Source: an uncultured Candidatus Saccharibacteria bacterium (lineage in GTDB: Bacteria; Patescibacteriota; Andersenbacteria; UBA10190). Taken from it: a stretch of DNA of 64,000 nucleotides. The notes under the pieces were generated by a model, which had not been told where the DNA came from, searched no databases, and was given only the letters and a program-made list of their open reading frames with translations. The stretch is from the NCBI GenBank assembly GCA_964610055.1, contig CAZSUC010000001.1, forward strand, positions 588,977 through 652,976, read 5' to 3'. A program made the translations under genes and the position numbers. Of the stretch, positions 29,665 to 52,136 are shown piece after piece; position 1 is the first letter of the stretch, and every line of letters starts with the position of its first letter.

Positions 29665-31620
29665 CTAAAGTTGGTATGCAATATCACCTGACTTAGCGAC
29701 CGGCTCTGTCTCTCCTTTGCGTTGCAAAAACATATTACCGGGACGTAGATCTTCATCAATGTACCGGACAGTTACTGCGTTTCCGGCTGTCCCGTCAGGA
29801 CTGGTAATAGCCACGTAAAATTCATGTCCCGCCGCTTCTGTAATCGGATCAAACTCAAAGCGCTTCCATTCGTTGTCTATAATTTCACTGGCATTCACTG
29901 TCACTCGTCGCAACGCGGTTGCCGAATCTGGCCGCTCCTTAATTTCCAACACGACTTCCGCTGTATTATTTCGACTCGAAAAAGTCGCAAACCCAATTTC
30001 GACCGCATTCCAATTATCCTGCTCGGGCTGCACAGTTTGCCCCACTTCCATTCCGCTCGTTAACTCGCCTACATGCTTCGTGAAATATCCAACTGTCATT
30101 GTCTCGTAAATCCAGGCATAAGGCACACCATGTATTGAAACAGTATGTACTGGCGTCTTGTCTTTCACTTCATCTAAAACGTTACTCGCTTGATCATCCA
30201 GAGCTCTTCCCCCCATATTACGATAAGTAATAATGTAACCTACTCGATAATCGTCTCTCGCACTTAAGCTAAATACTTTTCCCTGAAAATACGGCCGCAT
30301 CACGTTCGGATACCAAGAAGCAACTGTTAATTTGTCTCCCAACGGATTTTCATTCAACCAATCAGCCGCTAAATCTAACCCTTCCCCCCACCCCTGCTGA
30401 CTCAAAGAACGCACATTAGGAAATATCGGATTATTATACGCAATCGCATACGGCGCCCACCGCCACCATGTCACTCCCGCTAATATAACTACCAACCCAA
30501 TCAGAATTAATTTATCTCGCTTCTTACTGTGCCACCACGTCATCCCTTGCGCTAACATCCAACCTGATAGAATAGGCCCTATAACCAATGCCGGCATTGC
30601 GTAACGATCCCCTTTCTTAGCCGCCAACGAAATCAATACTAGAAAACCAACAGCATACACAATCATCCAAACCATTGTCTGCGCTCCTTTATCTCGTCGT
30701 TTAACCGCCGCATATAACACATAAACCACAGCCGCTATACTCAAAATTTGTACCCACGGAGTTACTCTCCCTAAAACTGTTCGCACATAAAACGAGGCTG
30801 GCGAAATAGGCTCATCTGATATTTCTAACGCCACATGCTCATCCTCTAAAACCGTCTGCGTATCTTTAGCAATATATCCTAATTGAAAATCCTTCCGAGT
30901 TAACATTGTCGGCCATAAAATTACCAAGACCACCACCGCTATTACGCCCCACATTGCCATTTCACCTAAAACTCGCTTCCAATTCTTCCCTCGCTCCCAA
31001 TACAAATCAATCATCCACATTAAACCAGCAACTGGCCCCAACCAAAATGCTAATACCATTTTTACTCCTAACGCCGCCCCCGCAAAAACTGCGCTAGTAA
31101 TCAAATAACCAGTCTTACGCCGTCGTCGAAACTGAATAAACCACAACAAAGACGTTAACATCAGCATCGCTTGTAACATATCCAAATGCGCCACCATACT
31201 CATCCCTACTACATACGGCTCCAACGCCAACATTATTCCTGCCAACCACGCCATCTCTTTTCCCCAGATCTGACTTAATAGATACGCCACTAATCCAATC
31301 AGACCTGACACAACTATCGCAACTGGCACAGTCGCTGCTTTTCTAAAGCCAATCACATTATTGTCATCTAATTCCACTCCGCTTATTTTTTCTTTTACCA
31401 CAATTCCCGCTCCCATGATCCACATTCCCGTTGCACCCGGATGACTCGTTAAGAATGTCCCGCTAATATCACCAGCGGCTAACTTAGCGTAAAACTCATT
31501 ACTTCGCATCATCCAGTTTTCTTCATCGGCCGTCATAAACGATCCAATCCCAACCAATCGCACACTTATCGCTAGCATCCCGATTACAATCCCAATTATA
31601 ATGTCTTTTACTTTTATCAT
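29665..31620 (-). CDS. GT-C glycosyltransferase, PMT_2/GT39-like, with a C-terminal extracytoplasmic beta-domain
   Basis: MTADEENWMMRS...TSHPGATGMWIMG first-loop motif. Paralogous to 40168-41676 at both ends (LTVASWYP...ITYRNMGGR). The C-terminal domain RFEFDPI..AITSP..GNAVTV recurs in 41673-44324. Confidence 0.65.
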   Translation of the reverse strand: MIKVKDIIIGIVIGMLAISVRLVGIGSFMTADEENWMMRSNEFYAKLAAGDISGTFLTSHPGATGMWIMGAGIVVKEKISGVELDDNNVIGFRKAATVPVAIVVSGLIGLVAYLLSQIWGKEMAWLAGIMLALEPYVVGMSMVAHLDMLQAMLMLTSLLWFIQFRRRRKTGYLITSAVFAGAALGVKMVLAFWLGPVAGLMWMIDLYWERGKNWKRVLGEMAMWGVIAVVVLVILWPTMLTRKDFQLGYIAKDTQTVLEDEHVALEISDEPISPASFYVRTVLGRVTPWVQILSIAAVVYVLYAAVKRRDKGAQTMVWMIVYAVGFLVLISLAAKKGDRYAMPALVIGPILSGWMLAQGMTWWHSKKRDKLILIGLVVILAGVTWWRWAPYAIAYNNPIFPNVRSLSQQGWGEGLDLAADWLNENPLGDKLTVASWYPNVMRPYFQGKVFSLSARDDYRVGYIITYRNMGGRALDDQASNVLDEVKDKTPVHTVSIHGVPYAWIYETMTVGYFTKHVGELTSGMEVGQTVQPEQDNWNAVEIGFATFSSRNNTAEVVLEIKERPDSATALRRVTVNASEIIDNEWKRFEFDPITEAAGHEFYVAITSPDGTAGNAVTVRYIDEDLRPGNMFLQRKGETEPVAKSGDIAYQL

Positions 31621-31659
31621 GCATTACTTATAGTACAATAATTCTAATTAATAAACCGA

Positions 31660-33930
31660 ATGTCGCCTTTTTCTCGTCCTTACTTTGCCTTATTAATTGT
31701 TAGCGCTTTAGCGCTCTGGCCGCTTTTTTTCGGCCGTTTTTACGGTATTGGCGATACACGCTCCGTTTATATTCCCATCGAGCATTTTTTTGCTGAGCAA
31801 CAACGGCACTTTAATTTACCGGCCTGGATGCCAGACACTGCTTGGGGTTTTCCGGTAATTGCTTCTGCTCAAATCGGTTTCTTTTATCCGCCTCTTTTAC
31901 TGACACGCTTCTTACCTATCTTTATTTACCTGCCGTTATTACTCTGGCTCCACATCTTTTTTCTCGGTATCGGCGCCTATCGTTTGGCCCGAACCCTAAA
32001 TATTAGTCAAAACGGCGCCCTGATTACCGCCCTATCCATTGCTCTTAACGCCTTTCTTTGGCAGCACTTAACCCACCTAAACATTATTTTTGCTTTGGCT
32101 TGGTTTCCTTGGCAATTACTCGCCGCTCATTACTTAGCCAGATCACATCGACCTAATTTCAAACAATTTGCCGGCTTAGTTTTCACTTTAGGCCTCCCGT
32201 TTTTAGCTGGCCAACTTCAAGTTCCTTTTCTCACCGCTCTTTTCTCTACCATTTATTATTTCGTTTCTTTACCCAAAAAGCCTTTCCCCTCTCGACATCT
32301 CCTCATTTTCCTCGGCGCAACTCTTTTGACTATTACTCTCACCGCCGTCCAAACATTTCCCACCCTAGAGCTCACATTCCTTTCCAGCCGTGGATCAACT
32401 AATGAATTTTCTTTGGAACGAGCTAATCAACATAGTTTTCCTATTTATCATCTACCCACCTTACTTTTTCCACGCTTTTTCGGCTCAGATAATACTTATT
32501 GGGGGAAACGTATTGAAATAGAATACGGCTTTTTCTTCGGCGTCATTCCGCTATGCCTCAGCTTTATTGCTATATTCAACAAATCACGTCGTTACCGTTT
32601 CTGGATTATCAGCGGCTTCATAGCTTTTCTGTTAAGCCTGGGCGAATTTTCTCCTTTTCGCTTAGTTGGCTTAGAGCCATCGCTCTGGTACTTTTCTGCT
32701 CCCGCCCGTTGGCTATTCTTCACCGTTTTTTCTGGATCAATCCTTGCTGGTTTTGGTTATGATCTTTTGCCTAATATCTCACCTCGTTACCTGCGCATCC
32801 TTAAATCAACTATTGTAACCATATTAAGCTGCGTCATTTTATATAATCTCGTCCTTTGGCTCTTGCCGGAAAATTTTGCTTCTTATGTTCTAACCTGGTT
32901 GCAATCACAAAATCTCACCGGCGCTCGCGATTCAGCCTATTATTTAGATAAGATTAATTCCTTACTCTCCTCTGCAAAACACACGGGCTTATCACTTGCT
33001 TCGCCATATACTTACATCACTCTCATTCCTTTGCTCGCCATTCCATGGCTCTTCCAAAAACATCACTCGTGGCTTATTCCTCTCACAGCTATTGAACTCA
33101 TCTTAATTGCCAGTACGGCCAATCCAAGTGTTACTTGGTCCAATATTCTAACTCCTCCTGCCAGCATCTCTGCCCTTCCTCAAAGTGTTACCAGCGATCA
33201 CGCTCGCATCATTTCAATCTCAGCTCCCGGCGATACAGGGCTTTGGCTAACTAACCCTGAAACCCGTGCCGATACCGCTCGTCGCGAACAATATCGTCAA
33301 CAACTCGAACCACTCACTCACTCACTTTTTAATCTTGCCGGTTCTCAATGGCCCGCCTCGCTGGATCTACAATCTCAGGCACATACTTTAGAAAATTTAC
33401 TCGAATCACGCCAAGATCAACTATACATTGATTCTGACAAAGCCGCTGCTCTCAATATCGGTGCTGCCTTAATTGCCAACGAAGCTCCCCACACTGTTTC
33501 AGAAGTACTACCCCAAAATATTGCACCGAATATCTTCTTGTATTCCTTCTCTCCTCAACCTCGCGCTTCTCTTTTAACTGAAGACCAAACCGAATTAGCG
33601 CTTCCATACGACAACACTAATCCTAATCACCAAACTTATACCCTCTCATCATCTACTCCCGCGACCCTTATTATTCGCGACACCTGGTACCCTGGTTGGC
33701 AAGCCACACTTGACGACCAACCCGTTAACATTGATACCTATAACAATATTTTCCGTTCTGTTTCGGTTCCCTCCGGATCACATACCGTTTCTTTCACCTA
33801 TCATCCTACTTGGCTTTATTACGGTCTAGCTATTTCGCTTACCACTCTTGGTTTTCTAATATTTGTGCTGATGTACAATAATCATATCTACACTGTTCCC
33901 TTTATTTTAAGGAGGAAGACCATTGGCTGA
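31660..33930 (+). CDS. YfhO-family membrane protein
   Basis: 756 aa. The N-terminal region is paralogous to 23569-26346 (GIGDTRSVYIPIEHFFAEQQ...NLPAWMPDTAWGFPVIA versus LDDLKLFYYPIETIYAEFQ...HLPLWSNVFGFGHPLLA). Confidence 0.7.
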   Translation: MSPFSRPYFALLIVSALALWPLFFGRFYGIGDTRSVYIPIEHFFAEQQRHFNLPAWMPDTAWGFPVIASAQIGFFYPPLLLTRFLPIFIYLPLLLWLHIFFLGIGAYRLARTLNISQNGALITALSIALNAFLWQHLTHLNIIFALAWFPWQLLAAHYLARSHRPNFKQFAGLVFTLGLPFLAGQLQVPFLTALFSTIYYFVSLPKKPFPSRHLLIFLGATLLTITLTAVQTFPTLELTFLSSRGSTNEFSLERANQHSFPIYHLPTLLFPRFFGSDNTYWGKRIEIEYGFFFGVIPLCLSFIAIFNKSRRYRFWIISGFIAFLLSLGEFSPFRLVGLEPSLWYFSAPARWLFFTVFSGSILAGFGYDLLPNISPRYLRILKSTIVTILSCVILYNLVLWLLPENFASYVLTWLQSQNLTGARDSAYYLDKINSLLSSAKHTGLSLASPYTYITLIPLLAIPWLFQKHHSWLIPLTAIELILIASTANPSVTWSNILTPPASISALPQSVTSDHARIISISAPGDTGLWLTNPETRADTARREQYRQQLEPLTHSLFNLAGSQWPASLDLQSQAHTLENLLESRQDQLYIDSDKAAALNIGAALIANEAPHTVSEVLPQNIAPNIFLYSFSPQPRASLLTEDQTELALPYDNTNPNHQTYTLSSSTPATLIIRDTWYPGWQATLDDQPVNIDTYNNIFRSVSVPSGSHTVSFTYHPTWLYYGLAISLTTLGFLIFVLMYNNHIYTVPFILRRKTIG

Positions 33931-34126
33931 TGACAAAGACCAAGACGAACGAAACCGACGACTTACAGAAGCCCTTGCGCCGTTAGGGCGAGGCGAGCTT
34001 CCTGACGGTACACCCATTGACCTAGCCGCCATCTCTGAACGTGCAAATCGGAAAGCCTGGATTTTTGCGCGCCGGCTTAGAGATAGCGCAGTACGTGACA
34101 ACCGCCGATACAAGGGTCAACACTAG
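33923..34126 (+). CDS. Small basic hypothetical protein, TTG start (paralog 1)
   Basis: TTG at 33923 lies 8 nt after AGGAGG. The 67-aa product shares ERNR(R/Q)LT.AL.PL...DL.AI... and a C-terminal YKG with the ORF at 34285. A strong intrinsic terminator follows. Confidence 0.55.
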   Translation: MADDKDQDERNRRLTEALAPLGRGELPDGTPIDLAAISERANRKAWIFARRLRDSAVRDNRRYKGQH

Positions 34127-34141
34127 CCCACCTCCTTACGT

Positions 34142-34169
34142 CCCGTGCCACATCGGCACGGGCTTTTTT
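34142..34169 (+). terminator. Rho-independent terminator after small paralog 1
   Basis: CCCGTGCC-ACATC-GGCACGGG 8-bp GC-rich stem followed by C+TTTTTT. Confidence 0.75.
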
Positions 34170-34284
34170 ACAATTTATTCCGTCCCAGTCTCTCATACCG
34201 GTATAAAATTTCTACTTTTGTAGATCGATATAGTATATTAACTTTATCTTTTGTTCCCTTCACTTTTAGTAGGAGGATAAACCG

Positions 34285-34476
34285 TTGGATAATGAAAACG
34301 AACGAAACCGACAACTTACCGTGGCTCTCAATCCATTAAGGACAGGTCTATCATTATCTGACCTCTCCGCAATCGCTGACCATGCCACAGACGACGCCAT
34401 GTCGCATGCCAAAGCAGTTCGTTCAGGAACAGCAAGGACCAGAGCTAAACACAGGTTAGGCCCATACAAAGGCTGA
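34285..34476 (+). CDS. Small basic hypothetical protein, TTG start (paralog 2)
   Basis: Same SD and TTG context as 33923 (AGGAGGATAAACCGTTGGAT). 63 aa, with protein-level similarity to paralog 1. Confidence 0.55.
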   Translation: MDNENERNRQLTVALNPLRTGLSLSDLSAIADHATDDAMSHAKAVRSGTARTRAKHRLGPYKG

Positions 34477-34509
34477 CCTTTGCGCACCATCACAGTCAGG
34501 AGAATTTTC

Positions 34510-34788
34510 ATGGCAGCAGAAACTTATCATTTCATCCTTTTAGGAAGCCCTCTCTCACGAACAGACTTCCTTAATCCGCTTAAAAGGCGGATACAATTCG
34601 ACATGGGCAAGACAGCTCTCGCTCAAGTCCCAGGCATACGTTTCGGTACCGAATTTCCTATTGCTTGCGCCGTAACCATCACCTGCCCGCGAGAATCACT
34701 GCCAGAACTCCACCGGATCATGACTGAACACAGTTTTCAAGAAGGTAGCCAGGAGATTTCAATCAAAACAGCCAGAGAAATCGCCTAA
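34510..34788 (+). CDS. Hypothetical protein
   Basis: 92-aa ORF from an ATG with an AGGAGA SD 7 nt upstream. Followed by a hairpin plus T-run. Confidence 0.45.
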   Translation: MAAETYHFILLGSPLSRTDFLNPLKRRIQFDMGKTALAQVPGIRFGTEFPIACAVTITCPRESLPELHRIMTEHSFQEGSQEISIKTAREIA

Positions 34789-34814
34789 CACACCTCCTCC
34801 TTCATCATCCTACT

Positions 34815-34841
34815 CCACCAAGCCAGTCTTGGTGGATTTTT
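34815..34841 (+). terminator. Rho-independent terminator between the convergent 34510 (+) and 34840 (-) genes
   Basis: CCACCAAG-CCAGT-CTTGGTGG 8-bp stem followed by ATTTTT. Confidence 0.65.
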
Positions 34842-36135
34842 ATATCCACATCCTATCAATCAATTCTCGCGGTTGTCCGTACCGTAATCGATTTACCGCC
34901 TGCACCTCTACCTTCCCTATAGCCGTTTCTAAACTTAACGGCGGCAAACTCTGCCCCCGAAATGCTCGGTACGTAATTCCGGCCTGAGTCAGACGGATAA
35001 AAAAGTGATATGGCGGCAAGTCCTGAAAATCCTCCACTTGAATCGCCTGCCCCTTATCCCACGATGTTTGCTGAAAGGCCGGCAGTAACGCTTCCGCATC
35101 ATTTGCCCCTATTTGAAAAGCCACCAACGTTCCTACATTACCCAACACCGCCTCTCGCACCTCGTCAGTTAATTGCGCCACATACTGATTAGTTAAATGC
35201 ACAGCTAATCCGTACTTGCGCGCTTCCGACAACATAGAAATGAATGTTTCCGTCATCACATTCTGAAATTCATCGACGTATAAATAAAAGGGAACCCTGT
35301 CTTCGACCGGCATATCGGCACGACGCATTATCGCCGCCTGTAACTTTGCCATCAAAATCAATCCCAACATATATGAATTTAATTCTCCCAGTCTTCCTTT
35401 AGACAAATTCACAATCAAAATTTTGCCATGATTCACAATCTCATCAAACGCCAAAGCATTGCGCTTCTGACCGATGATATTGCGCATCGTCGTATTTGTC
35501 ATAAAGCGACCAAACTTGGAAGTAAAATAATTCAACATTTCCGAGCGATGAAACTGCGCGGTTTTTGCCATCTGCTCTTCCCAAAATGACAATACGACCC
35601 GATCTCGCACATGGCGACGTTTTTCTTGCTCAAATTTTTCATCCGTAAATAAGCGCGGAATCTCAATCAAAGTTCCGCCCGCCGGATCGGCCATAACTGT
35701 TAAAGCCGCATTTCGCATCCAGTGTTCAAACTGCGGCCCAATAATTCCCTGCTGATCCGGATCAAATAGTTTATAAAATATCTGAATCGCCTCGGCCACC
35801 AAAAAATCTTTCTCACTTTCAGTTTTACCATCCAATAAGTTCAAGCCTAATGGCCATTCCGTATCAGCCGGATCAAACAACACTACATCATCCAACCGCT
35901 CCGCCGGAATATTATTTAACAGCCAATCGCACACTTCTCCATGCGGATCAACAAAACAACACCCCGCCCCAGCCTGAATATCCTGCAAAATCATATTTTG
36001 ATACAAAGTCGATTTACCCGTCCCAGTTTTTCCAATGCAATACATATGTCGCATCCGATCTTGCGGTGCTGTTTGAATACTGCGCATTTGATTGCGAAAT
36101 TCAGCGTGTCCAATTACATTCATTCTTTCTGTCAT
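34840..36135 (-). CDS. Soluble VirD4/TraD/TraG-like P-loop ATPase (FtsK-HerA superfamily, type IV coupling-protein-like)
   Basis: Walker A CIGKTGTGKST, downstream FVDPHGE (DPxGE motif) and Walker B FYLYVDEFQNV. No N-terminal TM segment. Terminal gene of a 4-gene minus-strand operon. Confidence 0.65.
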   Translation of the reverse strand: MTERMNVIGHAEFRNQMRSIQTAPQDRMRHMYCIGKTGTGKSTLYQNMILQDIQAGAGCCFVDPHGEVCDWLLNNIPAERLDDVVLFDPADTEWPLGLNLLDGKTESEKDFLVAEAIQIFYKLFDPDQQGIIGPQFEHWMRNAALTVMADPAGGTLIEIPRLFTDEKFEQEKRRHVRDRVVLSFWEEQMAKTAQFHRSEMLNYFTSKFGRFMTNTTMRNIIGQKRNALAFDEIVNHGKILIVNLSKGRLGELNSYMLGLILMAKLQAAIMRRADMPVEDRVPFYLYVDEFQNVMTETFISMLSEARKYGLAVHLTNQYVAQLTDEVREAVLGNVGTLVAFQIGANDAEALLPAFQQTSWDKGQAIQVEDFQDLPPYHFFIRLTQAGITYRAFRGQSLPPLSLETAIGKVEVQAVNRLRYGQPRELIDRMWI

Positions 36136-36136
36136 T

Positions 36137-36361
36137 TCAGCTCCTTTCTACCATTGTAAAATAATTAGCCGGAATAGGACGTGGCGGCAATCCCGGTCGC
36201 ATCACCATAACTACTTTTGTTTCCACCTTAGCTTCAGACGTAATCTTCACTGTCCGCCGCCATGCTTCCAAACGGTTTTTAATTACTCTCTGCGTTTCTA
36301 TTGGCAGCCAATGCTTAATTCGCTCATACTCCTCTTCTACTTTGTGTAATTTTGCTATCAT
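36137..36361 (-). CDS. Small hypothetical protein, translationally coupled
   Basis: Start taken at the ATG in an ATGA overlap with the Clp-like gene stop (MIAKLHKVEEEYERIK...). 74 aa. Its stop is 1 nt before the downstream ATG. Confidence 0.45.
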   Translation of the reverse strand: MIAKLHKVEEEYERIKHWLPIETQRVIKNRLEAWRRTVKITSEAKVETKVVMVMRPGLPPRPIPANYFTMVERS

Positions 36362-38043
36362 ATTGTTTCTTTCATCATCCATTGCCCGATCGCTGATTCC
36401 GCCGTTTGTTCTAGCCATCTTTTCAACGGCCTAACCCCGAACCGCGGATCATATTTCTGCTCAATGTGTTGTCTAATCATATTATCCGACATCGACAAAT
36501 TAACTCCCAAATGACTGAATCGTCTTTCAATCTTCTGTAGTTCCAACCGTCCGATCATCACTAAAGTTTCCGGCGCAAACGGAGCAAAAACAGCAATTCC
36601 CTCAAACCGATTCAAAAACTCCCACCGAAAATATTTAGTCAGCAATGGCAACATCCGCCGACTTAACCATTCCGCACTTGTTACATCCTCTCCTGCCTGC
36701 CAATCAGTCACAATTTCACTTATCCCTATATTCGAAGTCGCCACAATCACGGTTTTCCGGAAATCGATTGTTCGTCCTTGCCCATCAGTTAAACGCCCAT
36801 CTTCTAACACTTGTAAAAAAATATCAAACACCGCTTTATCGGCTTTTTCAATTTCATCCAATAAAACTAACGAATATGGCCTTTGTTGTACTGGATTAGT
36901 TAATTGACCACCACTCTCATACCCAACATAACCAGGTGGCGCACCAATTAAACGCTGTACATTATGTGCTTCCTGGTATTCCGACATATCAACCCTTACC
37001 ATCGCCTTATCTCCGCCGTACAATTCTCGCGCCAACACACGCGCCACCTCTGTTTTACCGACTCCGGATGGACCTAAAAACAAAAATGAACCCAATGGTC
37101 GATCCGGATTCTTCAATCCTAACCATGACCTTTCGATTACTTTTGTTACCATATTTACTGCTTGATCCTGACCAATGACCTGCGCTGCTAATCTACCCCC
37201 CAACCCAGCAATGGCCTTCCTATCTCGCGTTTGAACTTTTATTGTCGACATCCCCAACTTATCACTCAAAACCCGCTGCGCATCTTCATATGCCACAATC
37301 CTCCGCCCCTGCACCACCGCCTCCGCTCCAATGTCATCTAAAAACCTAATTGCCCGTTCGGGCATCGCTAAGCTCGCTGGTAACTGACTCGCTAAATCAT
37401 AGATTGCTTCCGGCATATTAGCAGCCATCTTAATATTATGTTTGAATCCAAAATAAGCGGCGCGATCTCTTAAAATTTCCACCACATCTGCTTTTCCTAA
37501 TTCATCTAATCGAATCCATTCGAACTCACGTACATACTTCGGATAATTTTCCTTAAATTTTATTTCTCCTTCTAACGACAACGCTAACACTAATCTATGC
37601 CTCTGTTTCTGCCAAAACTTACTCCACACATCCGCCATCTGCGCTGTATTCATCACATACTCCAACAGCACCTCTGCCTTATCAATCACCAAAATACAGG
37701 CTGGTAGCGCTCCTAGTGCTTCTCCGTAAAGCCGTAATTTCGCGGCCGGATCATGCGCTCGATTCATTTTTTCCTGCCACCATTTCAAATCTAACTCCAG
37801 AATTGGTGTTTGAATTATCCCCTGCAAACTGCCTTTGACCGCCGCCTGCGCCAACCCTCTCAACAACGCTGTTTTGCCTACTCCTTCTCCTCCTGTCACC
37901 ACCACGTTATTCATTTGATCACGCTCAAATACTCGCGCCATCAAACTCAACTCTCGCTCCCGACCTCTCACTGGCCACTGACGAACTTGAGTAGCCTCTC
38001 GCACTAAATCAATTATATGTATTGTTTCTAATCGCTCAGGCAT
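36358..38043 (-). CDS. Clp/Hsp100-family double AAA+ ATPase (ClpB/ClpA-like, lacking N- and M-domains)
   Basis: D1 Walker A VVVTGGEGVGKTAL with a degenerate D1 Walker B (ILVIDKAE). D2 Walker A FLFLGPSGVGKTEVAR, Walker B LVLLDEIEKA, and sensor FLQVLEDGRLTDGQGRTIDFRKTVIVATSNIG, all characteristic of ClpB D2. Confidence 0.75.
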   Translation of the reverse strand: MPERLETIHIIDLVREATQVRQWPVRGRERELSLMARVFERDQMNNVVVTGGEGVGKTALLRGLAQAAVKGSLQGIIQTPILELDLKWWQEKMNRAHDPAAKLRLYGEALGALPACILVIDKAEVLLEYVMNTAQMADVWSKFWQKQRHRLVLALSLEGEIKFKENYPKYVREFEWIRLDELGKADVVEILRDRAAYFGFKHNIKMAANMPEAIYDLASQLPASLAMPERAIRFLDDIGAEAVVQGRRIVAYEDAQRVLSDKLGMSTIKVQTRDRKAIAGLGGRLAAQVIGQDQAVNMVTKVIERSWLGLKNPDRPLGSFLFLGPSGVGKTEVARVLARELYGGDKAMVRVDMSEYQEAHNVQRLIGAPPGYVGYESGGQLTNPVQQRPYSLVLLDEIEKADKAVFDIFLQVLEDGRLTDGQGRTIDFRKTVIVATSNIGISEIVTDWQAGEDVTSAEWLSRRMLPLLTKYFRWEFLNRFEGIAVFAPFAPETLVMIGRLELQKIERRFSHLGVNLSMSDNMIRQHIEQKYDPRFGVRPLKRWLEQTAESAIGQWMMKETI

Positions 38044-38044
38044 A

Positions 38045-39895
38045 TTAGACCATCATTGTCCGATTAACAGTTGTGCCACCCGTAATCTGACTGGATCTTA
38101 TCGTTCCTTCCTCTTCATCTTCTGTTCCTATAATTATCCCGCCACGATGACGCGCTTCTGCCGCTAACTCAATCTCTGTCCCTCTTTGCTTAATCTGACC
38201 AACATAATTATCTAAATCTACTCGCCAACCCGGCTTCTCTCTTTCATTTCTCCAATTTTCTCTTTCCGCCTCTGCTCTCCATTCATATCCAACCGGACCA
38301 TCTGTCACTTGCTCTAAACTATCCGGCTTCGTTTTCGCCTCATAAAAACGATACCTAACTGCATCCCCATCTCGCTCCACTACCGTTACATCCAACACTT
38401 CGCCTTTTACCGTACGCTCTCCCGAAAAATACTGCTGTTCTCTGTTTACTGCGCCTCTAATCACTTTTTCTAGCTCTCCTCGCTCTTCCACCGGCCACAA
38501 ATCCATCACACTCTTTTCTATTTGCTCCGGCATCAACGTTAAAGCGACTTTCTCTTCCATATCTAACTCAACATCAATACCCTGAATTTCCTCTCTTCTT
38601 ACCTCCGCCTTATAAACCGTTTCTACCTTCGGGTACTCTTTCTTTTCCCCAACCTTCACATCTACATTCACATCTACATCTATATTCTCTACATTATTTT
38701 CTCTTCCCTTTTCTAAAATCACTGGTCTTTCAGCTATTTTTTTCTCCTCCGTAATCGCAACTTCAACTCTTTCCTTAACTCTCGTAACGCTTTGCTCCGA
38801 TAAAACCTGGTCGGCTTTCACATCCACCGCTTTCGGCACTAGTCCCGGAAACATCTCCTGTAAACTCACTTCTACTTTCCTAGATTCATTTTTCTGTCCT
38901 AAATCAGTTTGCACTACTTCTGGCATTGAAGCAGCTTCTCTTTCCCCCGCATTTACATACTTTATCTCTATGGCTTCACTCGGCGTATTTTCTATCACCC
39001 GTACCTCTCCTGTCTTCGTCTCACCAGGTTCCTCTTGCTTTAACAACTCCTTACGCAACTCCTCATGATTCCAAACTTCTTCTAGCTGCGGCTCTTCAAC
39101 CTGCCTCTGCTCCACAAACACATCAGAATTAATCGTATTTTCAGATGCTTGTTCTTCTAGTTCTTCTCTTTGATCATCTACTTCCACTCTTTCACCAACC
39201 ATATCCATCGCATTTATATAATTTATCTCAATGCCTTCACTCGACGTATTTTCTATCACTTGCACCTCTTCTTCTCTCACCTCATTGCTTTGCTGTTCTT
39301 GTACCACTACCACTTCTTCTCTAACAAGCTCTTCACTTATCTCATCAACCATACTTTCTGCTTGCGCTTCAATCTCTACTTGTTCTACTTGCGCTTCATC
39401 TTCACTGCCTATCCACTCGTCGCTTTCTTCATTCAAATTAACCGGTACTTCACGAAATTGCACTAACATATATTCTGTTTCTCGTTCTCCCCACTCATTC
39501 ACTTCGTCTTTGACCACCACTGCACAACTTTTAAACTCATGATAAGCCACATATCCACTTTTCGCGCCACATAATGTTTCAAATTGCCCTTCTTCATCCA
39601 TTCCTTCACTACTAATCTCCTGATCATTCCAAAATACCCGTCTCTTACCAGTCGCGTCTTCCCTCACCACGCATTTATATGTCTGCGCCATTTCTAGTCT
39701 TTGCCCTGTCCCTTGCTCTAAATCAACTCGAGCTGATTCTAATCTCATTGTCATTCGCTCATGTTCTTCTGTCTGGCGTTCCTTTTCCGATGCTAATTCT
39801 TCTGCTTGAACCTGTACCTCAGATTCAATCTCTTCAACATCCAACATTTCCTCTAGGCTTTCTTCGGTTTCCGCTATGTTTATACTTTCAGGCAT
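38045..39895 (-). CDS. Highly acidic glutamate-rich protein with an internal sequence repeat (no recognisable domain)
   Basis: 616 aa from the ATG at 39895, which lies 9 nt after AGGAG. Low-complexity E/V/Q-rich sequence with duplicated segment QVIENTSSEGIEINYINA / RVIENTPSEAIEIKYVNA. Less acidic C-terminal 150 aa. The ORF-track start at 39925 would include the SD. Confidence 0.6.
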   Translation of the reverse strand: MPESINIAETEESLEEMLDVEEIESEVQVQAEELASEKERQTEEHERMTMRLESARVDLEQGTGQRLEMAQTYKCVVREDATGKRRVFWNDQEISSEGMDEEGQFETLCGAKSGYVAYHEFKSCAVVVKDEVNEWGERETEYMLVQFREVPVNLNEESDEWIGSEDEAQVEQVEIEAQAESMVDEISEELVREEVVVVQEQQSNEVREEEVQVIENTSSEGIEINYINAMDMVGERVEVDDQREELEEQASENTINSDVFVEQRQVEEPQLEEVWNHEELRKELLKQEEPGETKTGEVRVIENTPSEAIEIKYVNAGEREAASMPEVVQTDLGQKNESRKVEVSLQEMFPGLVPKAVDVKADQVLSEQSVTRVKERVEVAITEEKKIAERPVILEKGRENNVENIDVDVNVDVKVGEKKEYPKVETVYKAEVRREEIQGIDVELDMEEKVALTLMPEQIEKSVMDLWPVEERGELEKVIRGAVNREQQYFSGERTVKGEVLDVTVVERDGDAVRYRFYEAKTKPDSLEQVTDGPVGYEWRAEAERENWRNEREKPGWRVDLDNYVGQIKQRGTEIELAAEARHRGGIIIGTEDEEEGTIRSSQITGGTTVNRTMMV

Positions 39896-40167
39896 ACAAA
39901 AAACTCCTACATGCACAACACGCATGAGGAGAAATCACTAAAAATCCTTATGCGCGTAGGCTCAACAAAGGATTCAGGCACTCTGACTTATGGCTTTTAG
40001 CCCATCACAGTTGCGGCATACCAGCGCCGGATTCTCACCGGCTTTCCCTGATCACACTTTTCAGTGCGCGTGGTGCGAACCACGCCAATCCTCTTTAAAA
40101 ATTAATGTGCACTCTTAGCTTACCGCCGTTCCCTTGGCCCCACAATCAGTTTTTTGCACAGGCTCGT

Positions 40168-41676
40168 TTATTTAGCGTATATCCAAACATAAGGCACGTC
40201 GTGCACCTTTATAACCTCCACCGGCACGACATCTTTCATTGCCGCTAACGCCTGACTCGCCAAAGTGTCTTCTCCGCGACCACCCATGTTTCTATAGGTC
40301 ACAATATAATCAACATGTTCATTCTCCCGAGCCGCTAAACTAACTACCTCGCCCCTAAAATATGTTTGCAACACTTGCGGATACCAAGATGCAACCGTTA
40401 ATTGTTCCGCCTCTGTCTGCGCGTTTAACCAAGCTGCCGCCGCTTCTAACCCCTCACCCCATCCTTGCTGACTTAGTGGCCGTATCTCCGGTAATAAAGA
40501 ATTATTATACGCAATCAAATAACTATCTCGCCAATTAGCCCATGTCCAAACGGATAGAAATACCACCACGCCTATCGCAAACCCTTGCCATGTTTTTTTT
40601 CGTCTCGCCAAAGTTATCTTTGCCGTTACCCATCCCGTCAACACCGGCCCCACAACCAACGCTGGCAATGCATACCGATCCGCTTTTTTCGCCGCCCAAG
40701 TCATAATAACCAAAAAGCCAATCGCATAAACATACATCCAAACCATTTCTTGGCTGTGCTTTTGTTTCCGCACTATTACTATTAATGCTGCTACCCAGCC
40801 AAATAACACCAGCGGCGTACTCCGACCCAATGCGGTTCGCATATAAAAAGTCGCGGGCTGAATCGCATCCGTCCCAGCATCTAACTCAACATGCTCCCAA
40901 GTAACTGCTGTCCCAATATCACGCGTAAATGAACGACTCATATCTGCTTTCACCCACGCCGCTGGCCATGCCACCCAAAACACCAGTCCTGCTACTCCAA
41001 TCACCGTGCCCAAAGTTCGCAACATTATATTTATTTTTCCTGACTTGCCCCATAACTTCCACACCACCCACCCCATCATCATTGGCACTAGCCATAACGC
41101 TAAAATTAATTTCGTTGCCGCTGCTAGCCCAAACCAAATACCTGCTCCAACTAGCCAACGCCATTTTTGCTTTTGCCACCAGACCATCCACGCCAACCAA
41201 CTATTCAACATGAACAATGCCAATAATCCATCCAAATGCACAATCTGCGTCGCTCCTGCTAAATACGGATCTAACGCCAAAAATATTCCAGCTAACCAAC
41301 CGACTGGCGCCCCTCCTAAGATCGTCAACATAAATGCCGCTATCCCAATCATCCCAGCCGCCGCTAAACTCACGGGCAGAACAGCTGCCTTACGAAAATG
41401 TTGTAAATTACCTGGCTGAACTGTTACTCCTAAACGTGTTTCTTGCACCACTTCCCCTGCCCCTGCTAGCCACATTAAAGGCGCCCCCGGATGAGTTGTC
41501 ACAAATGTCGACGCTGGATCCATGGCTCGAATTGCCTGCCAATATTGAGCGCTGCGTAACATCCACGCCTCTTCATCCACTGTCATATATTGCCCTAACC
41601 CCGGCCACCGCGCCAATAACGCTAAAACTCCGATACTAACTGGTATTATTCCTGCTTTCGCTTTAATCCAATTCAC
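40168..41676 (-). CDS. GT-C glycosyltransferase, PMT_2/GT39-like (paralog of 29665-31620)
   Basis: MTVDEEAWMLRS...TTHPGAPLMWLAG and C-terminal LTVASWYPQVLQTYFRGEVVSLAARE...VTYRNMGGRGED align to the 29665 ORF. Confidence 0.65.
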   Translation of the reverse strand: MNWIKAKAGIIPVSIGVLALLARWPGLGQYMTVDEEAWMLRSAQYWQAIRAMDPASTFVTTHPGAPLMWLAGAGEVVQETRLGVTVQPGNLQHFRKAAVLPVSLAAAGMIGIAAFMLTILGGAPVGWLAGIFLALDPYLAGATQIVHLDGLLALFMLNSWLAWMVWWQKQKWRWLVGAGIWFGLAAATKLILALWLVPMMMGWVVWKLWGKSGKINIMLRTLGTVIGVAGLVFWVAWPAAWVKADMSRSFTRDIGTAVTWEHVELDAGTDAIQPATFYMRTALGRSTPLVLFGWVAALIVIVRKQKHSQEMVWMYVYAIGFLVIMTWAAKKADRYALPALVVGPVLTGWVTAKITLARRKKTWQGFAIGVVVFLSVWTWANWRDSYLIAYNNSLLPEIRPLSQQGWGEGLEAAAAWLNAQTEAEQLTVASWYPQVLQTYFRGEVVSLAARENEHVDYIVTYRNMGGRGEDTLASQALAAMKDVVPVEVIKVHDVPYVWIYAK

Positions 41677-44324
41677 ACTGCACTCGCTTTAATTCGATGC
41701 ATGAACACCAGCGTGTTTGATCCATTCTCTACTTCATGAACTGTTTCAAAATCAGTTTCCATCCCTGCCTCAATCTCGGAATACTCCATCAAAAATGAAA
41801 ACCCAGTTTGTTTTTCTAGTAACACCCATTCCGCCTCACGCCAAGCCTGAACCATCTCTTCGGCGGAAGGCAAAAACACATTCAGTCTTTCTGGGTTCTT
41901 TCGTGTAAATTCATAGGCATACCAACGCGGATGAGCAATATCTAACGACACATGATGACCAGATAAATATGGTACTGCCGCTGCTCCCGTAAAAATCGGT
42001 TTATCTGATGGAATATTTTCCTGCGCCCATTCTGCCGCCTCACGCAAAGAATCTTGCTGAAAAGTTCCAGTGTGCTCAAACGTTGCCGTAATATAATTTG
42101 ATAAATAAACTGCCCACATAATCACTAGTATACTTATCACCGCCAATGGGCGGCGTACCATTTCTCCTTTACCTACCACAAACAAACGTCTCCACAACCA
42201 ATAAGCTCCTACCGCCGCCAATATCGTCAGAGGTGGCAAAAATTCAATAATGTAATTCGCATGAAACTTAATCCAATTCCAGTAAAAGAAGGCTAAGCCT
42301 AAAAACCACGCCAACAAGACCAATGCACTCGCTAGCATCTGTCCCGCCGATTGTTCTCCCGGTGCCACTTTAATTGACTGTTTAATTTCAAATTGAGCTT
42401 GTGCTCCTGAAACTACATTCATCGGTATATTCACCCCTGCATCCGGCTGCGTACTAGCTTTAACTTGAGATGACGCCACCCATCCTTCTTCATTACTACG
42501 CGGCCATACAGTTGCAATCAGTAAAACACTCATCATACCCCACCATAACCCTCGCATTCCACCCATTGATAAAAACGGTTCTCCTTCATATTCAAAGAAA
42601 AATCCATGCGCCCACCACCACCCTAACCATGCCAATAACCAGCCTATTTTTGGCAGCACATGATCGACAATTACAATAGTGATCTTGTCCGACTTATCAC
42701 TGACCCACTTTCGCGCTATCACCCGTAACCATCTTTCCCACATCATTCCAACTCCCACCAGCGCCAAAATTATTAGCGGCAATGATTCTCGGAAAAACGG
42801 CGTCATGCCTCGAATTGAATATTCGCGCACTTGTTCCGCCTCTGCCGGATCAATTGCGGTTTGCCCATCTTCCGCTGAATTAAAACCACTCACTTCCCAC
42901 AAGCCTTGTGTACCATACTGACCATATGCCCACCCTAACAACGCCGAAATTACTAACAAAAATCCCGCCCCAATCAAAACTAAACGCTGGAATTTATTGC
43001 GCCATCCTCGCGACTCAATCCAGACTAATAATAACGGCACAATCCCTAACGCTAGAATACTCTTACGCGAAGCAACACCTAACCCCAATAAAAGACCACC
43101 TATTAACAAGCGATATCCTAATTTCCGGCCTCCCAGATGACCCCGCAACGCCGTCCATATCACCGCGATTCCACTAATCCCAAATAACATCGCCACTGGC
43201 TGAGTGTGCACATACACTGTACTCACTGCTGCCGATCCCAACATCCCCCACATTACCGCTGCCAATAATCCTGTTCGTTTGTTATGTGCTTCTCGTCCAA
43301 TAAAATACATCGGAATGATTGTCAGCACTCCAGCCATAATTGATCCCATGCGTCCCGCTAAAATTGTCGGTCCCATTATTAACTGCCATAATGCCACCCA
43401 TAACAACATAATCGGCGCCTTCACATAACCATCCCCTCCGGCTAAGTGTCCGCGCAATAATGTTTGCGCATCATACAAATAATTACCCTCATCATTAGTC
43501 ACCGGCATTTCTACGGCATATCTGATACGCCATAAAGTCGCCAATATCATGACTAAAGCAATAATCGTTCCCACTACTACTCGATTTAATTCTTTTTCCT
43601 GAGCTTGCCCGCTCAAAACTACTATTGCTCCTACAACCACCGCAGCCGCCAACGCTAAAATCATCCAGTTATAATACGTTCCTTCCCGTGTATCCCAAGT
43701 TCCCACTACCCACCGCGCCTGATTCCCAACAGTGGTAATAATAGCTTCTCGCAACGTCACATCATGATGAGCTATAAACGCCACATCCACCGTTGGCTTT
43801 CCTGACCGCGCAATTACCTCCGCCCCTATCTGCCCTTCGCTGTTCCGCACTAAAAATGCTGACCCTAAGTGATAAGGATCTTGCGTGTTCAAATCAACAG
43901 TCACTGCATTTCCCACCACTGACGCCGGCGAAGTAATCGCGAAGAAATAAGTTTTTCCTTTGCTATTCGCAATCGGATCAAACTCAAACCGATAAAATTG
44001 ATTATCTCCTAGCTCCTGCGGCTCAGCTATGACAGTCCGCAAATTTTCATCACTTGTATAGGACTCTCGTAAATAGAAATAAACCGGCGCCGTGTTGTCC
44101 CTCCCCGAATACGTTGCAAACATTACGCTTACTGCCGACAAGTCATCTGCATCCGCCACAAAAGTCTGTCCTACTAACGCATCGCCCGTTAATTCACCTG
44201 CGTTAGTTGTATATTCCTTAATTTCCGTGTCATTTTGCTTAACCTTAATAAAATTCGCTGACACTGCTGCAGCCGCTAAAACAACTACCACAATTAAAAA
44301 CCAAATTTTTGTTGATGATCGCAT
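41673..44324 (-). CDS. Large GT-C (ArnT/PMT-like) membrane glycosyltransferase with an N-terminal extracytoplasmic beta-domain
   Basis: Signal-anchor, then a domain RFEFDPIANSKGKTYFFAITSPASVVGNAVTV homologous to the C-terminus of 29665-31620. Then about 13 TM helices with a PMT/ArnT-like first loop (NDEGNYLYDAQ) and a long C-terminal region. 883 aa. Confidence 0.6.
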   Translation of the reverse strand: MRSSTKIWFLIVVVVLAAAAVSANFIKVKQNDTEIKEYTTNAGELTGDALVGQTFVADADDLSAVSVMFATYSGRDNTAPVYFYLRESYTSDENLRTVIAEPQELGDNQFYRFEFDPIANSKGKTYFFAITSPASVVGNAVTVDLNTQDPYHLGSAFLVRNSEGQIGAEVIARSGKPTVDVAFIAHHDVTLREAIITTVGNQARWVVGTWDTREGTYYNWMILALAAAVVVGAIVVLSGQAQEKELNRVVVGTIIALVMILATLWRIRYAVEMPVTNDEGNYLYDAQTLLRGHLAGGDGYVKAPIMLLWVALWQLIMGPTILAGRMGSIMAGVLTIIPMYFIGREAHNKRTGLLAAVMWGMLGSAAVSTVYVHTQPVAMLFGISGIAVIWTALRGHLGGRKLGYRLLIGGLLLGLGVASRKSILALGIVPLLLVWIESRGWRNKFQRLVLIGAGFLLVISALLGWAYGQYGTQGLWEVSGFNSAEDGQTAIDPAEAEQVREYSIRGMTPFFRESLPLIILALVGVGMMWERWLRVIARKWVSDKSDKITIVIVDHVLPKIGWLLAWLGWWWAHGFFFEYEGEPFLSMGGMRGLWWGMMSVLLIATVWPRSNEEGWVASSQVKASTQPDAGVNIPMNVVSGAQAQFEIKQSIKVAPGEQSAGQMLASALVLLAWFLGLAFFYWNWIKFHANYIIEFLPPLTILAAVGAYWLWRRLFVVGKGEMVRRPLAVISILVIMWAVYLSNYITATFEHTGTFQQDSLREAAEWAQENIPSDKPIFTGAAAVPYLSGHHVSLDIAHPRWYAYEFTRKNPERLNVFLPSAEEMVQAWREAEWVLLEKQTGFSFLMEYSEIEAGMETDFETVHEVENGSNTLVFMHRIKASAV

Positions 44325-47114: not shown

Positions 47115-48053
47115 TTATTCAAATCCAACTGTTCTCCGGATTGTATAGGGCTTTTTTTCCGTGTAATAAGTTTTTGCCACCTGATCAGCCAATACTCCGG
47201 ACAATAAAAATTGAAAACCTAATAAAACTAATAAAACAGCCAGCAGGGGAGAAGTTCGATTCGCCAACCCAATAATCCGAAATAACCACAGTGCGCCTAG
47301 CGTACCACCCAAGACAAATCCAGTTCCGATAAATCCCGCCCCGATCGCTCCAAAAAAGTGCATCGGCCTAGCTGAATATTGAATCCAAAATTTCACCACA
47401 AATAAATCCAAAAACCCTTTTAATTTCTTTTTGATTGAATATTTCGTCTTACCGTATTTACGAGGATGATGCCTTACCACCATCTCTCCCACTCGAAATC
47501 CTTTCCATGACAACAACGCTGTAATATACCGATGCATTTCTCCGTATAATTCCAGTCCTTCCAAAGCTTCTTTGCGGTACACTTTCAAACTGCACCCTTG
47601 ATCGTGAATTTTTTCGCCTGTTACTCTCCGTCGCACCCAATTCCCAATCTTACTCCCCAGCATCAATAGTTGCTTATCATGCCGCTCTTTTCGCCATCCG
47701 GATACGACATCTAATTTATCCTCCTCTAACTTCTTAATCATCGCCGGAATATCTTCCGGATCATTCTGTAAATCAGCATCTAACACAATCACGTATTTCC
47801 CTTGCGCTTTATCAAACCCAGCCGACCAAGCCGCTGTCTGTCCAAACTGTCGTCGGAATTCAATTAGCTTCACGCGCTTATCTTGTTCAGTCAGGCGCAC
47901 AACTCGTTTCAATGTCTCATCCGTGCTACCGTCATCAATAATAATCAATTCCCACTCTCCTGCCATTTCACCCACTACCCGCTTAACCGACTCATACAAA
48001 GGCAGGATTGAATCTTCTTCGTTATGTGCTGGGACAACAATTGAATATTGCAT
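47115..48053 (-). CDS. Polyprenyl-phosphate glycosyltransferase (GT2; Dpm1/ArnC/GtrB-like)
   Basis: SIVVPAHNEEDSI...LIIIDDGSTDET...VIVLDADLQNDPEDI plus two C-terminal TM helices. This architecture is typical of undecaprenyl/dolichyl-phosphate sugar synthases. Confidence 0.85.
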   Translation of the reverse strand: MQYSIVVPAHNEEDSILPLYESVKRVVGEMAGEWELIIIDDGSTDETLKRVVRLTEQDKRVKLIEFRRQFGQTAAWSAGFDKAQGKYVIVLDADLQNDPEDIPAMIKKLEEDKLDVVSGWRKERHDKQLLMLGSKIGNWVRRRVTGEKIHDQGCSLKVYRKEALEGLELYGEMHRYITALLSWKGFRVGEMVVRHHPRKYGKTKYSIKKKLKGFLDLFVVKFWIQYSARPMHFFGAIGAGFIGTGFVLGGTLGALWLFRIIGLANRTSPLLAVLLVLLGFQFLLSGVLADQVAKTYYTEKKPYTIRRTVGFE

Positions 48054-50055: not shown

Positions 50056-50097
50056 TTCCTTATTATTCCTAATTATCTTTAAAAAAGGAACTGCAGT

Positions 50098-50601: not shown

Positions 50602-50606
50602 AGTTA

Positions 50607-52131: not shown

Positions 52132-52136
52132 ATGTT

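What the first reader, a model, noticed from the sequence alone, without database searches (positions are those of the whole stretch)
29665..44324. Shared extracytoplasmic beta-domain shuffled between GT-C proteins (C-terminal in one, N-terminal in another)
The last 110 aa or so of the 651-aa GT39-like protein (..NNTAEVVLEIKERPDSATALRRVTVNASEIIDNEWKRFEFDPITEAAGHEFYVAITSPDGTAGNAVTVRYIDED) align to the first 150 aa of the 883-aa GT-C protein (..SAVSVMFATYSGRDNTAPVYFYLRESYTSDENLRTVIAEPQELGDNQFYRFEFDPIANSKGKTYFFAITSPASVVGNAVTVDLNTQD). A weaker echo, WVFEFAKIKAK...RLRFVNYGNEV, sits in the N-terminal domain of 22103-23503. This suggests a mobile accessory domain, perhaps carbohydrate-binding, recombined onto different membrane transferases.
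Basis: seen in the sequence. Interest (0 to 1): 0.5.

Follow-up and report, generated by a model that had tools for sequence, protein, structure and literature searches.

The report
Mobile sugar-binding-like domain on membrane glycosyltransferases
Two membrane sugar-transferases in this bacterial gene cluster carry the same ~140-residue beta-sandwich module, one at its end and one at its start; the module belongs to a large, unnamed family that is fused to, or encoded beside, many cell-surface glycan enzymes and most likely holds the glycan being modified.

Summary
The main observation is real. Residues 513-649 of the 651-aa protein (A) align to residues 38-183 of the 883-aa protein (B): 41% identity, E 2e-26, z = 43 against shuffles. 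The claimed third echo in 22103-23503 is not supported.

The module has sharp edges. A residues 2-505 are 44% identical to the neighbouring 502-aa GT-C protein, which lacks the module. B residues 1-245 (helix, domain, helix) match free-standing ~225-aa proteins. One of these is encoded directly upstream of a homologue of B's transferase core.

A full HMM search found 2,196 cluster representatives. The module sits at the N-terminus, at the C-terminus or inside PMT_2, DUF2142 and YfhO enzymes. It also occurs on WsaF-like GT4, PA14 and other partners. No Pfam, NCBIfam or PDB sequence match covers it.

AlphaFold2 (pLDDT 97) gives a jelly-roll. Its closest solved relatives are a phage baseplate protein and carbohydrate-binding modules.

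The best reading is an acceptor-glycan-binding accessory domain, working like the CBMs of EmbC, AftD and GT136. Binding itself is inferred, not shown. It is a new family of a known kind and of moderate interest.

The parts
29668..30105 (-). Shared beta-jelly-roll domain, C-terminal copy (protein A residues ~506-651).
   Evidence: BLASTP against B, E 2e-26. HMM envelope 512-650. AF2 model pLDDT 96.9, pTM 0.90, about 9 strands. It begins exactly where similarity to the domain-less 502-aa paralogue ends.
30106..31620 (-). GT-C core of protein A (residues 1-505): polytopic membrane part plus a proximal extracytoplasmic part. An acidic motif, TADEENW, follows the first helix.
   Evidence: Pfam PMT 32.9 bits and PMT_2 25.6 bits. 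Hydropathy peaks. 44% identical to the 502-aa protein. Sequence.
43755..44234 (-). Shared beta-jelly-roll domain, N-terminal copy (protein B residues ~31-190).
   Evidence: BLASTP against A. HMM envelope 36-191. hhalign positive control at probability 100%.
44250..44306 (-). B helix 1 (residues 7-25). This signal-anchor places the domain outside the cell.
   Evidence: Hydropathy 2.47. It is preceded by the positively charged MRSSTK. Topology is inferred.
43608..43664 (-). B helix 2 (residues 221-239). It returns the chain to the cytoplasm ahead of the GT-C core.
   Evidence: Hydropathy 2.67. The same helix-domain-helix layout is seen in stand-alone homologues P0062, P0065 and P0066.
41676..43589 (-). 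GT-C core of protein B (residues ~246-883). The acidic motif TNDEGNY lies in the loop after its first core helix.
   Evidence: Pfam PMT_2 at residues 303-465, 31.3 bits. It aligns from residue 254 to the 565-aa GT-C encoded downstream of stand-alone P0065.
40168..41676 (-). 502-aa GT-C, a paralogue of A without the domain. Its GTG start overlaps the B stop codon (GTGA).
   Evidence: BLASTP: A 2-505 against 502-aa 4-500, 44% identity, E 1.6e-135. PMT_2 29.9 bits. Junction sequence read.
28232..29662 (-). 476-aa PMT_2 GT-C. Its start codon lies 2 nt downstream of the A stop codon. It has no copy of the domain.
   Evidence: Pfam PMT_2 38.5 bits. An orthologue is present in L003.
25156..25557 (+). 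Possible degenerate third copy in the 925-aa YfhO-like protein (residues ~530-663). This is unconfirmed.
   Evidence: hmmsearch E 0.084. hhalign gives 122 in-register columns but P = 0.03 and probability 1.6%. No homologues were found to build a profile.

Best explanation
The shared segment is an independently folding beta-jelly-roll module of about 130-145 residues, displayed on the outer face of the membrane.

In A it is simply appended after the C-terminal extracytoplasmic part of a PMT_2/GT39-like GT-C enzyme. In B it is held between two extra helices in front of the GT-C core. This is the only way to put an outside domain ahead of a core whose first helix starts in the cytoplasm. The B arrangement is a fusion of a free-standing helix-domain-helix protein with a GT-C enzyme.

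The module belongs to a large, so far unnamed family. Its members have been repeatedly fused to, or encoded next to, enzymes that build or decorate cell-surface glycans.

The most likely role (inferred) is to bind the acceptor glycan, or the glycosylated acceptor. That would hold the acceptor at the periplasmic active site while the GT-C core transfers a sugar from a polyprenyl-phosphate donor. A and B share the module and travel together in related genomes, so they probably act in succession on the same surface polymer.

Shown here: homology, sharp modular boundaries, the split and fused forms, the fold, and the genomic context. Inferred: the topology and glycan binding.
For: Homology and boundaries.

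Conservation of both architectures. Orthologous A-type and B-type genes sit side by side in a Candidatus Andersenbacteria MAG (L002: 5673-8366 and 8372-10453). They also occur in a Saccharibacteria MAG (L003) and on a metagenome contig (L001). In a tree, the domains group by architecture. Synonymous sites between the A and B copies are saturated (50% nucleotide identity), so the copies are old and maintained by selection.

Family size and architectures. 2,196 representatives score E <= 1e-3 and 727 score <= 1e-10. Among the top 150 there are 35 C-terminal, 28 N-terminal, 27 stand-alone helix-domain-helix and 8 internal YfhO-type arrangements, plus tandem copies. Partner families are listed.

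Split form. P0065 is followed by a PMT_2 gene overlapping it by 11 nt in three assemblies, and that GT-C aligns to B from residue 254.

Conserved polar residues (E8, Q17, R39, N41, N103, T106, D135 in domain numbering) suit a ligand site.

Context. The window encodes dTDP-rhamnose, heptose and nonulosonic-acid pathways, GT2, GT4, MurJ and eight GT-C-type proteins. Other domain carriers lie in clusters with GT2/DUF2304, Wzx, Wzy_C and GT-C genes.

Precedent. CBMs on the GT-C enzymes EmbC, AftD and GT136 ORF12 bind the acceptor polysaccharide (PMC11127046). EmbB has one jelly-roll between TM1 and TM2 and another at the C-terminus (PMC7305291).
Against: No binding experiment exists, and no sequence match to any CAZy/Pfam CBM family or to a solved structure was found.

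The jelly-roll fold is generic. It also serves protein-protein contacts, for example in viral capsids, TNF-like ligands and PHR domains, all of which appear in the hit lists.

Four GT4/WsaF-type partners have no predicted membrane helices. The module is therefore not exclusively extracytoplasmic.

Topology rests on a crude hydropathy count and on analogy with other GT-C enzymes.

The acceptor in this organism is unknown and could be a protein rather than a glycan.
Confidence: 0.6

Rival explanations
1. The module is a protein-protein docking or oligomerisation domain. It would assemble several GT-C enzymes (A, B and their domain-less partners) or a separate subunit into one complex, without touching the glycan.
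For: Stand-alone helix-domain-helix forms encoded next to GT-C genes behave like subunits. A and B co-occur and are adjacent in L002. The top structural hits are assembly components of phage baseplates and capsids. In EmbB the N-terminal jelly-roll contacts the C-terminal domain (PMC7305291).
Against: The domain also occurs on soluble GT4/WsaF, PA14, GDSL and Acyl_transf_3 partners, and in tandem arrays. Such varied partners are more typical of a substrate-binding module than of a specific docking surface. The invariant residues are polar or charged, not a hydrophobic patch.
Confidence: 0.2
2. The module recognises a protein acceptor such as a pilin, an S-layer protein or another surface protein. 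It would then play the role that the MIR domain plays in eukaryotic protein O-mannosyltransferases, and A and B would be protein glycosyltransferases.
For: A and B hit the PMT/PMT_2 families.
Against: Hits to PMT_2 are generic for ArnT/GT83-like lipid and glycan transferases. The fold is a jelly-roll, whereas MIR is a beta-trefoil (from general knowledge). Partner enzymes such as YfhO, DUF2142, WsaF and Acyl_transf_3 are mostly annotated as glycan-modifying. No candidate acceptor protein was identified in the window.
Confidence: 0.12
3. The resemblance is due to chance or composition. Alternatively, A and B are ordinary whole-length paralogues or circular permutants rather than products of domain shuffling.
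For: Both proteins belong to the same broad GT-C class.
Against: E 2e-26 with compositional correction, and z = 42.8 against shuffles. Outside the domain the best A-B alignment has E 0.022. A's core is 44% identical to a different protein, the 502-aa one. B's core matches a separate 565-aa enzyme elsewhere.
Confidence: 0.01

Closest known systems
Periplasmic jelly-roll / CBM domains of the mycobacterial GT-C arabinosyltransferases EmbA/B/C, and AftD
   Same: These are GT-C membrane enzymes with extracytoplasmic beta-sandwich accessory domains. EmbB has one jelly-roll between TM1 and TM2 and another at the C-terminus (PMC7305291). Those are the two positions seen here in B and in A. The EmbC and AftD CBMs bind the acceptor polysaccharide (PMC11127046).
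C-terminal CBM of the GT136 founding enzyme ORF12 (Citrobacter youngae O-antigen ribofuranosyltransferase)
   Same: It is a GT-C enzyme in a three-component extracytoplasmic glycosylation system. Its C-terminal beta-rich CBM binds the unmodified polymer backbone (PMC11127046). The layout resembles protein A.
   Different: The paper describes that CBM as immunoglobulin-like. No sequence similarity to it was detected. No comparison between the two was run here.
A domain of the staphylococcal phage phi812 baseplate protein (PDB 9euf chain 0, deposited as 'DUF4815 domain-containing protein'; probably the tripod protein) and the Bxb1 tail spike gp29
   Different: Sequence identity is only 11-17%, and no Pfam DUF4815 hit appears even at E <= 10. 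Those are soluble virion proteins, not enzyme accessories. Identifying chain 0 as the tripod protein is my inference from chain length.
CAZy carbohydrate-binding modules with beta-jelly-roll folds (CBM35/6/36/4/15/61 and the N-terminal CBM of CE2/AcXE esterases)
   Different: There is no detectable sequence similarity. The known families sit mainly on secreted glycoside hydrolases and esterases, not on membrane glycosyltransferases. Binding is untested here.

Membership tests
GT-C fold glycosyltransferases (PMT / PMT_2, GT39/GT83-like) | Sequence match to the family model above its curated threshold | tested here: met
   A: PF02366 PMT 32.9 bits (cut-off 22.7). B: PF13231 PMT_2 31.3 bits (cut-off 26.1). 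The 502-aa paralogue scores 29.9 bits and the 476-aa neighbour 38.5 bits.
GT-C fold glycosyltransferases (PMT / PMT_2, GT39/GT83-like) | Polytopic membrane core of about 7-13 helices | tested here: met
   Kyte-Doolittle scan: at least 8 peaks in A before residue 390, and at least 10 in B after residue 245. This is a crude method; no dedicated topology predictor was available.
GT-C fold glycosyltransferases (PMT / PMT_2, GT39/GT83-like) | Acidic residue(s) in the first extracytoplasmic loop after core helix 1 | tested here: met
   A has ...FMTADEENW after helix 7-25. B has ...VTNDEGNYLYD after helix 249-267. A catalytic role was not tested.
GT-C fold glycosyltransferases (PMT / PMT_2, GT39/GT83-like) | Use of a polyprenyl-phosphate-linked sugar donor on the outer face of the membrane | not testable with these tools
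   Context only: a GT2 gene (47115-48053) and nucleotide-sugar pathways are nearby.
Carbohydrate-binding module (CBM) | Discrete, independently folding beta-sandwich / jelly-roll module | tested here: met
Carbohydrate-binding module (CBM) | Contiguous with, or encoded beside, carbohydrate-active enzymes | tested here: met
   Partners are PMT_2, YfhO, DUF2142, GT4/WsaF, Acyl_transf_3 and GDSL.
Carbohydrate-binding module (CBM) | Sequence membership in an established CBM family | tested here: not met
   No Pfam hit at E <= 10 for eight domain sequences. No family covers the domain in 60 full-length carriers. NCBIfam was scanned on the full-length window proteins and no hit lies in the domain. 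The PDB profile search gave a best E of 0.19.
Carbohydrate-binding module (CBM) | Demonstrated carbohydrate binding | not testable with these tools
   Requires biochemistry.
Emb/AftD-type arabinosyltransferases (GT53 and relatives) | Sequence homology to the Emb/Aft transferase core or to the EmbC C-terminal CBM | tested here: not met
   No arabinosyltransferase family appears among the Pfam hits of A or B. No Emb chain appears among the listed structural matches. The resemblance is architectural only.
   E > 4, hhalign probability 0.2%, shuffle z 1.1-2.5.

The most novel reading that the evidence does not exclude
The family could be a new carbohydrate-binding module class dedicated to glycan synthesis rather than degradation. 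Its free-standing helix-domain-helix members would then be detachable acceptor-binding subunits of GT-C enzymes. That would be a two-component organisation, an acceptor-recognition subunit plus a catalytic subunit, which evolution repeatedly fuses and splits. Acceptor specificity of surface-glycan transferases could then be read from, and swapped through, this module.
Probability: 0.3. Interest if true: 0.6.

Novelty: new member of a known kind. Interest (0 to 1): 0.45.

Why it matters
GT-C enzymes build bacterial cell-surface glycans, and how they choose their acceptors is poorly understood. A large, unnamed, easily recognised domain family (more than 2,000 clusters at 50% identity) marks the extracytoplasmic side of several GT-C families. 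It also occurs as a separate subunit. That gives a concrete handle for predicting which enzymes share an acceptor, for annotating thousands of 'hypothetical' membrane proteins, and for experiments on acceptor recognition. This includes the largely uncultured CPR (candidate phyla radiation) bacteria, whose envelopes are almost unknown. It would also justify a new Pfam entry and possibly a new CAZy CBM family.

Tried and rejected
(1) Third copy in the 466-aa protein. It was rejected by BLASTP, three HMMs, hhalign and a shuffle test. A homologue search of its N-terminal region found nothing, so no profile-profile test was possible.

(2) Possible degenerate copy in the 925-aa YfhO-like protein. 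There is a weak in-register match. The homologue search found nothing, so it stays unconfirmed.

(3) The word-indexed protein search with the two-copy profile gave only four hits. All four are N- or C-terminal pieces of A/B-type proteins; three lie on contigs of 1.5-2.4 kb. The exhaustive HMM search was needed to see the family.

(4) Recent gene conversion between the A and B copies was rejected. Nucleotide identity is 50%, third positions are saturated, and the longest exact run is 18 nt.

(5) A known Pfam DUF covering the domain was rejected. DUF7657, DUF2142 and DUF6541 map to the membrane parts. The whole-protein YfhO model bridges the domain region in P0061 and partly in P0092, but it does not hit the isolated domain.

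(6) Searches that could not run: afdb50 fold search (library unavailable); genome and viral locus scans with the diverse alignments (no sufficiently conserved stretch); exact look-up of protein A in the contig index (not on record).

(7) The neighbour-joining tree of 136 domains shows A-like and B-like architectures in several separate clades. It has no support values, so it was used only as a hint of repeated fusion.


Full report
**1. Observation**

- Protein A (29665-31620, minus strand, 651 aa) and protein B (41673-44324, minus strand, 883 aa) share one segment: A 513-649 aligns with B 38-183.
- BLASTP with composition-based statistics gives 41% identity over 146 columns, E 2e-26. phmmer agrees.
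- A local-alignment shuffle test gives z = 42.8, with 0 of 1000 shuffles reaching the score.
- Outside this segment the two proteins are essentially unalignable (best E 0.022).

The 'weaker echo' in the 466-aa protein (22103-23503) is not supported.
- Pairwise E-values are 0.032 (in a different register) and 1.1.
- HMMs built from 2, 6 and 136 domain sequences give E > 4.
- hhalign probability is 0.2%, and shuffle z-scores are 1.1 and 2.5.
- No homologues of that region could be retrieved for a profile-profile test.

**2. Anatomy: the module has sharp edges**

A residues 2-505 are 44% identical (E 1.6e-135) to residues 4-500 of the 502-aa protein encoded at 40168-41676.
- That paralogue ends where the shared domain begins in A, so A is this GT-C plus the domain.
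- The 502-aa gene starts with a GTG that overlaps the stop codon of B (GTGA).
- A is followed, 2 nt downstream, by a further 476-aa PMT_2 gene.

In B, hydropathy gives this order:
- helix 7-25;
- the domain (31-190);
- helix 221-239, then a short basic/acidic linker;
- helix 249-267, followed by a loop with the acidic motif TNDEGNY.

A has the equivalent motif (TADEENW) right after its first helix. The first loop of GT-C enzymes faces outward (general knowledge; also PMC11127046). B therefore needs exactly two extra helices to display an N-terminal domain outside, and it has them. The topology itself is inferred, not measured.

**3. Relatives**

*Close relatives.*
- The word-indexed search found only four N- or C-terminal pieces of A/B-type proteins. 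One comes from a 2x-coverage contig whose genes are broken into short ORFs.
- The species-genome scan found both gene types in CPR (candidate phyla radiation) bacteria. In a Candidatus Andersenbacteria MAG (L002) the B-type gene (897 aa) is immediately followed by the A-type gene (693 aa). A Candidatus Saccharibacteria MAG (L003) has both, and L004 has the B-type.
- Synteny with the window extends over the flanking epimerase, GT4, GT2 and nucleotidyltransferase genes at 42-73% protein identity.
- In a tree the domains group by architecture, not by genome. Synonymous sites between the window's two copies are saturated. Both placements are therefore old and conserved.

*The wider family.* The exhaustive HMM search of 1.84 billion representatives found 2,196 proteins at E <= 1e-3, 727 at <= 1e-10 and 44 at <= 1e-30. 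Among the top 150 hits (crude helix counting):

| Architecture | Count |
|---|---|
| Polytopic protein with C-terminal domain (A-like) | 35 |
| Helix-domain-polytopic protein (B-like) | 28 |
| Complete helix-domain-helix protein of ~220-250 aa | 27 |
| YfhO-like protein with the domain inside its distal ectodomain | 8 |

There are also proteins with two or three tandem copies.

- Pfam partners in 60 carriers are PMT_2 (10), YfhO (8), DUF2142 (6), GT4/WsaF (4), DUF7657, DUF1616, DUF6541, Acyl_transf_3, PA14 and GDSL.
- Within DUF2142 alone, both an N-terminal placement (P0085) and a C-terminal placement (P0146) exist.

*The split form of B.*
- Stand-alone P0065 (225 aa) is encoded with an 11-nt overlap upstream of a 565-aa PMT_2 gene, in three independent assemblies.
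- That enzyme aligns to B residues 254-376 and 681-867, starting at B's third helix.
- B is thus the fused form of a two-gene arrangement that exists elsewhere.

*Context of other carriers.* They lie in clusters with GT2/DUF2304, GT-C, Wzx-type flippase, Wzy_C and GT4 genes.

**4. Is the domain already named?**

- No Pfam family hits the isolated domain even at E <= 10, for eight sequences.
- No family is shared across carriers. Where DUF models hit, they cover the membrane parts.
- NCBIfam hits on the full-length window proteins all lie outside the domain.
- A 31-sequence profile finds no solved structure by sequence. The best match is E 0.19, a short strand motif of legume lectins.
- One caveat: the whole-protein YfhO model spans the region in P0061 and part of it in P0092. 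It does not detect the isolated domain.

**5. Fold**

- With 6 sequences AlphaFold2 gave pLDDT 74. With 31 diverse sequences it gave pLDDT 96.9 and pTM 0.90, an all-beta sandwich of about nine strands.
- The phi812 paper describes CBM16/CBM61-like and Cwp84-like beta-sandwich domains in the tripod protein and proposes glycan binding (PMC13433997).
- Nearly invariant residues are mostly polar: the GE and GQ(T/S)F motifs, R-x-N, F-x-F-x-P, SP, GNAxT and GD(L)xF.

**6. Context in the window**

The 64 kb is a surface-glycan island. It encodes:
- rmlABCD;
- a heptose-nucleotide pathway;
- a pseudaminic/legionaminic-type nonulosonic acid pathway;
- GT2 and GT4 enzymes, MurJ and an ABC exporter;
- eight GT-C-type membrane proteins between 22103 and 44324.

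**7. Mechanism**

The best-supported reading is an accessory acceptor-binding module of CBM type. It would position the growing or finished surface glycan for transfer by the GT-C core.
- This is what was shown for EmbC and AftD, and for the C-terminal CBM of GT136 ORF12 (PMC11127046).
- EmbB even has jelly-rolls at the same two positions, between TM1 and TM2 and at the C-terminus (PMC7305291).
- A and B share the module and are neighbours in relatives, so they probably act on the same polymer.

Shown: homology, modularity, the split and fused forms, the fold and the context. Inferred: outside topology and glycan binding.

Rivals:
- a protein-protein docking role (about 0.2);
- recognition of a protein acceptor (about 0.12);
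- chance similarity or whole-protein paralogy, which is excluded.

**8. Novelty and verdict**

CBM-like accessory domains on GT-C enzymes are known. This particular family appears undescribed in Pfam, NCBIfam and the PDB, and it is large and unusually promiscuous. Its detachable helix-domain-helix form is not described in the Emb, AftD or GT136 papers consulted here. I rate it a new member of a known kind, with interest 0.45.

The third copy does not.

Noticed in passing
window 34840-39925 (minus strand): Three genes sit between the B/502 pair and the A/476 pair; the A-type and B-type genes are adjacent in the Andersenbacteria relative L002. They encode a 431-aa HerA/TraG-like ATPase (PADLOC mad8, 4e-16), a 561-aa ClpB-D2-like AAA+ protein (PADLOC PDC-M37B 8e-40, DolB 2e-20) and a 626-aa protein with no helices and no family hit. 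This looks like an inserted defence-type island inside the glycan cluster.
   Followed up: partly
window 25156-25557 (+), residues ~530-663 of the 925-aa YfhO-like protein 23569-26346: There is a weak but full-length, in-register match to the domain profile (hmmsearch E 0.084; hhalign 122 columns, P 0.03). Most conserved polar residues are lost. It may be a degenerate copy in the position where YfhO-type carriers have the domain. No homologues were found to test this.
   Followed up: partly
whole window 1-64000: GC skew is very strong and uniform, about -0.3 in nearly every 2-kb bin, falling to -0.14 at 62001-64000. It holds whichever strand the genes are on, at about 44% GC. The window's A and B proteins are on record from a 698,565-bp contig, consistent with a small CPR genome.
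   Followed up: no
window 22103-44324: Eight GT-C-type membrane proteins lie within 22 kb. Four hit PMT/PMT_2 (28232-29662, 29665-31620, 40168-41676, 41673-44324). Three are mutually related YfhO-like proteins (23569-26346, 26343-28313, 31660-33930). One is ALG3-like (22103-23503) and has its own ~200-aa N-terminal ectodomain of unknown fold.
   Followed up: partly
window 9436-16444 and 48069-55124: Complete-looking sugar-nucleotide pathways flank the GT-C block: a nonulosonic acid route (PseB-like, aminotransferase, CMP-transferase, NeuB, ATP-grasp), rmlA/B/C/D, and a heptose route (SIS isomerase, PfkB kinase, HAD phosphatase, cytidylyltransferase-like).
   Followed up: no
L002 14636-16819 (-) and L003 10441-12840 (-): Related CPR genomes carry a further, more divergent copy of the domain near the N-terminus of 727-aa and 799-aa proteins (hmmsearch E 8.8e-8 and 4.7e-4; hhalign probability 96% and 83%). 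These proteins have no BLAST counterpart in the window.
   Followed up: partly
P0144, P0150, P0147, P0096 (database proteins): The domain also sits C-terminal to WsaF-like GT4 (GT-B fold) rhamnosyltransferase-type enzymes that have no predicted membrane helices. It is therefore not restricted to the outer face of the membrane or to GT-C enzymes.
   Followed up: partly
window domains A and B compared with other genomes: The two copies within the window are more alike (42%) than the A-type/B-type pairs within L001, L002 or L003 (29-36%). Nucleotide comparison shows no recent gene conversion, so the reason is open. It could be co-adaptation to one ligand, or noise.
   Followed up: partly
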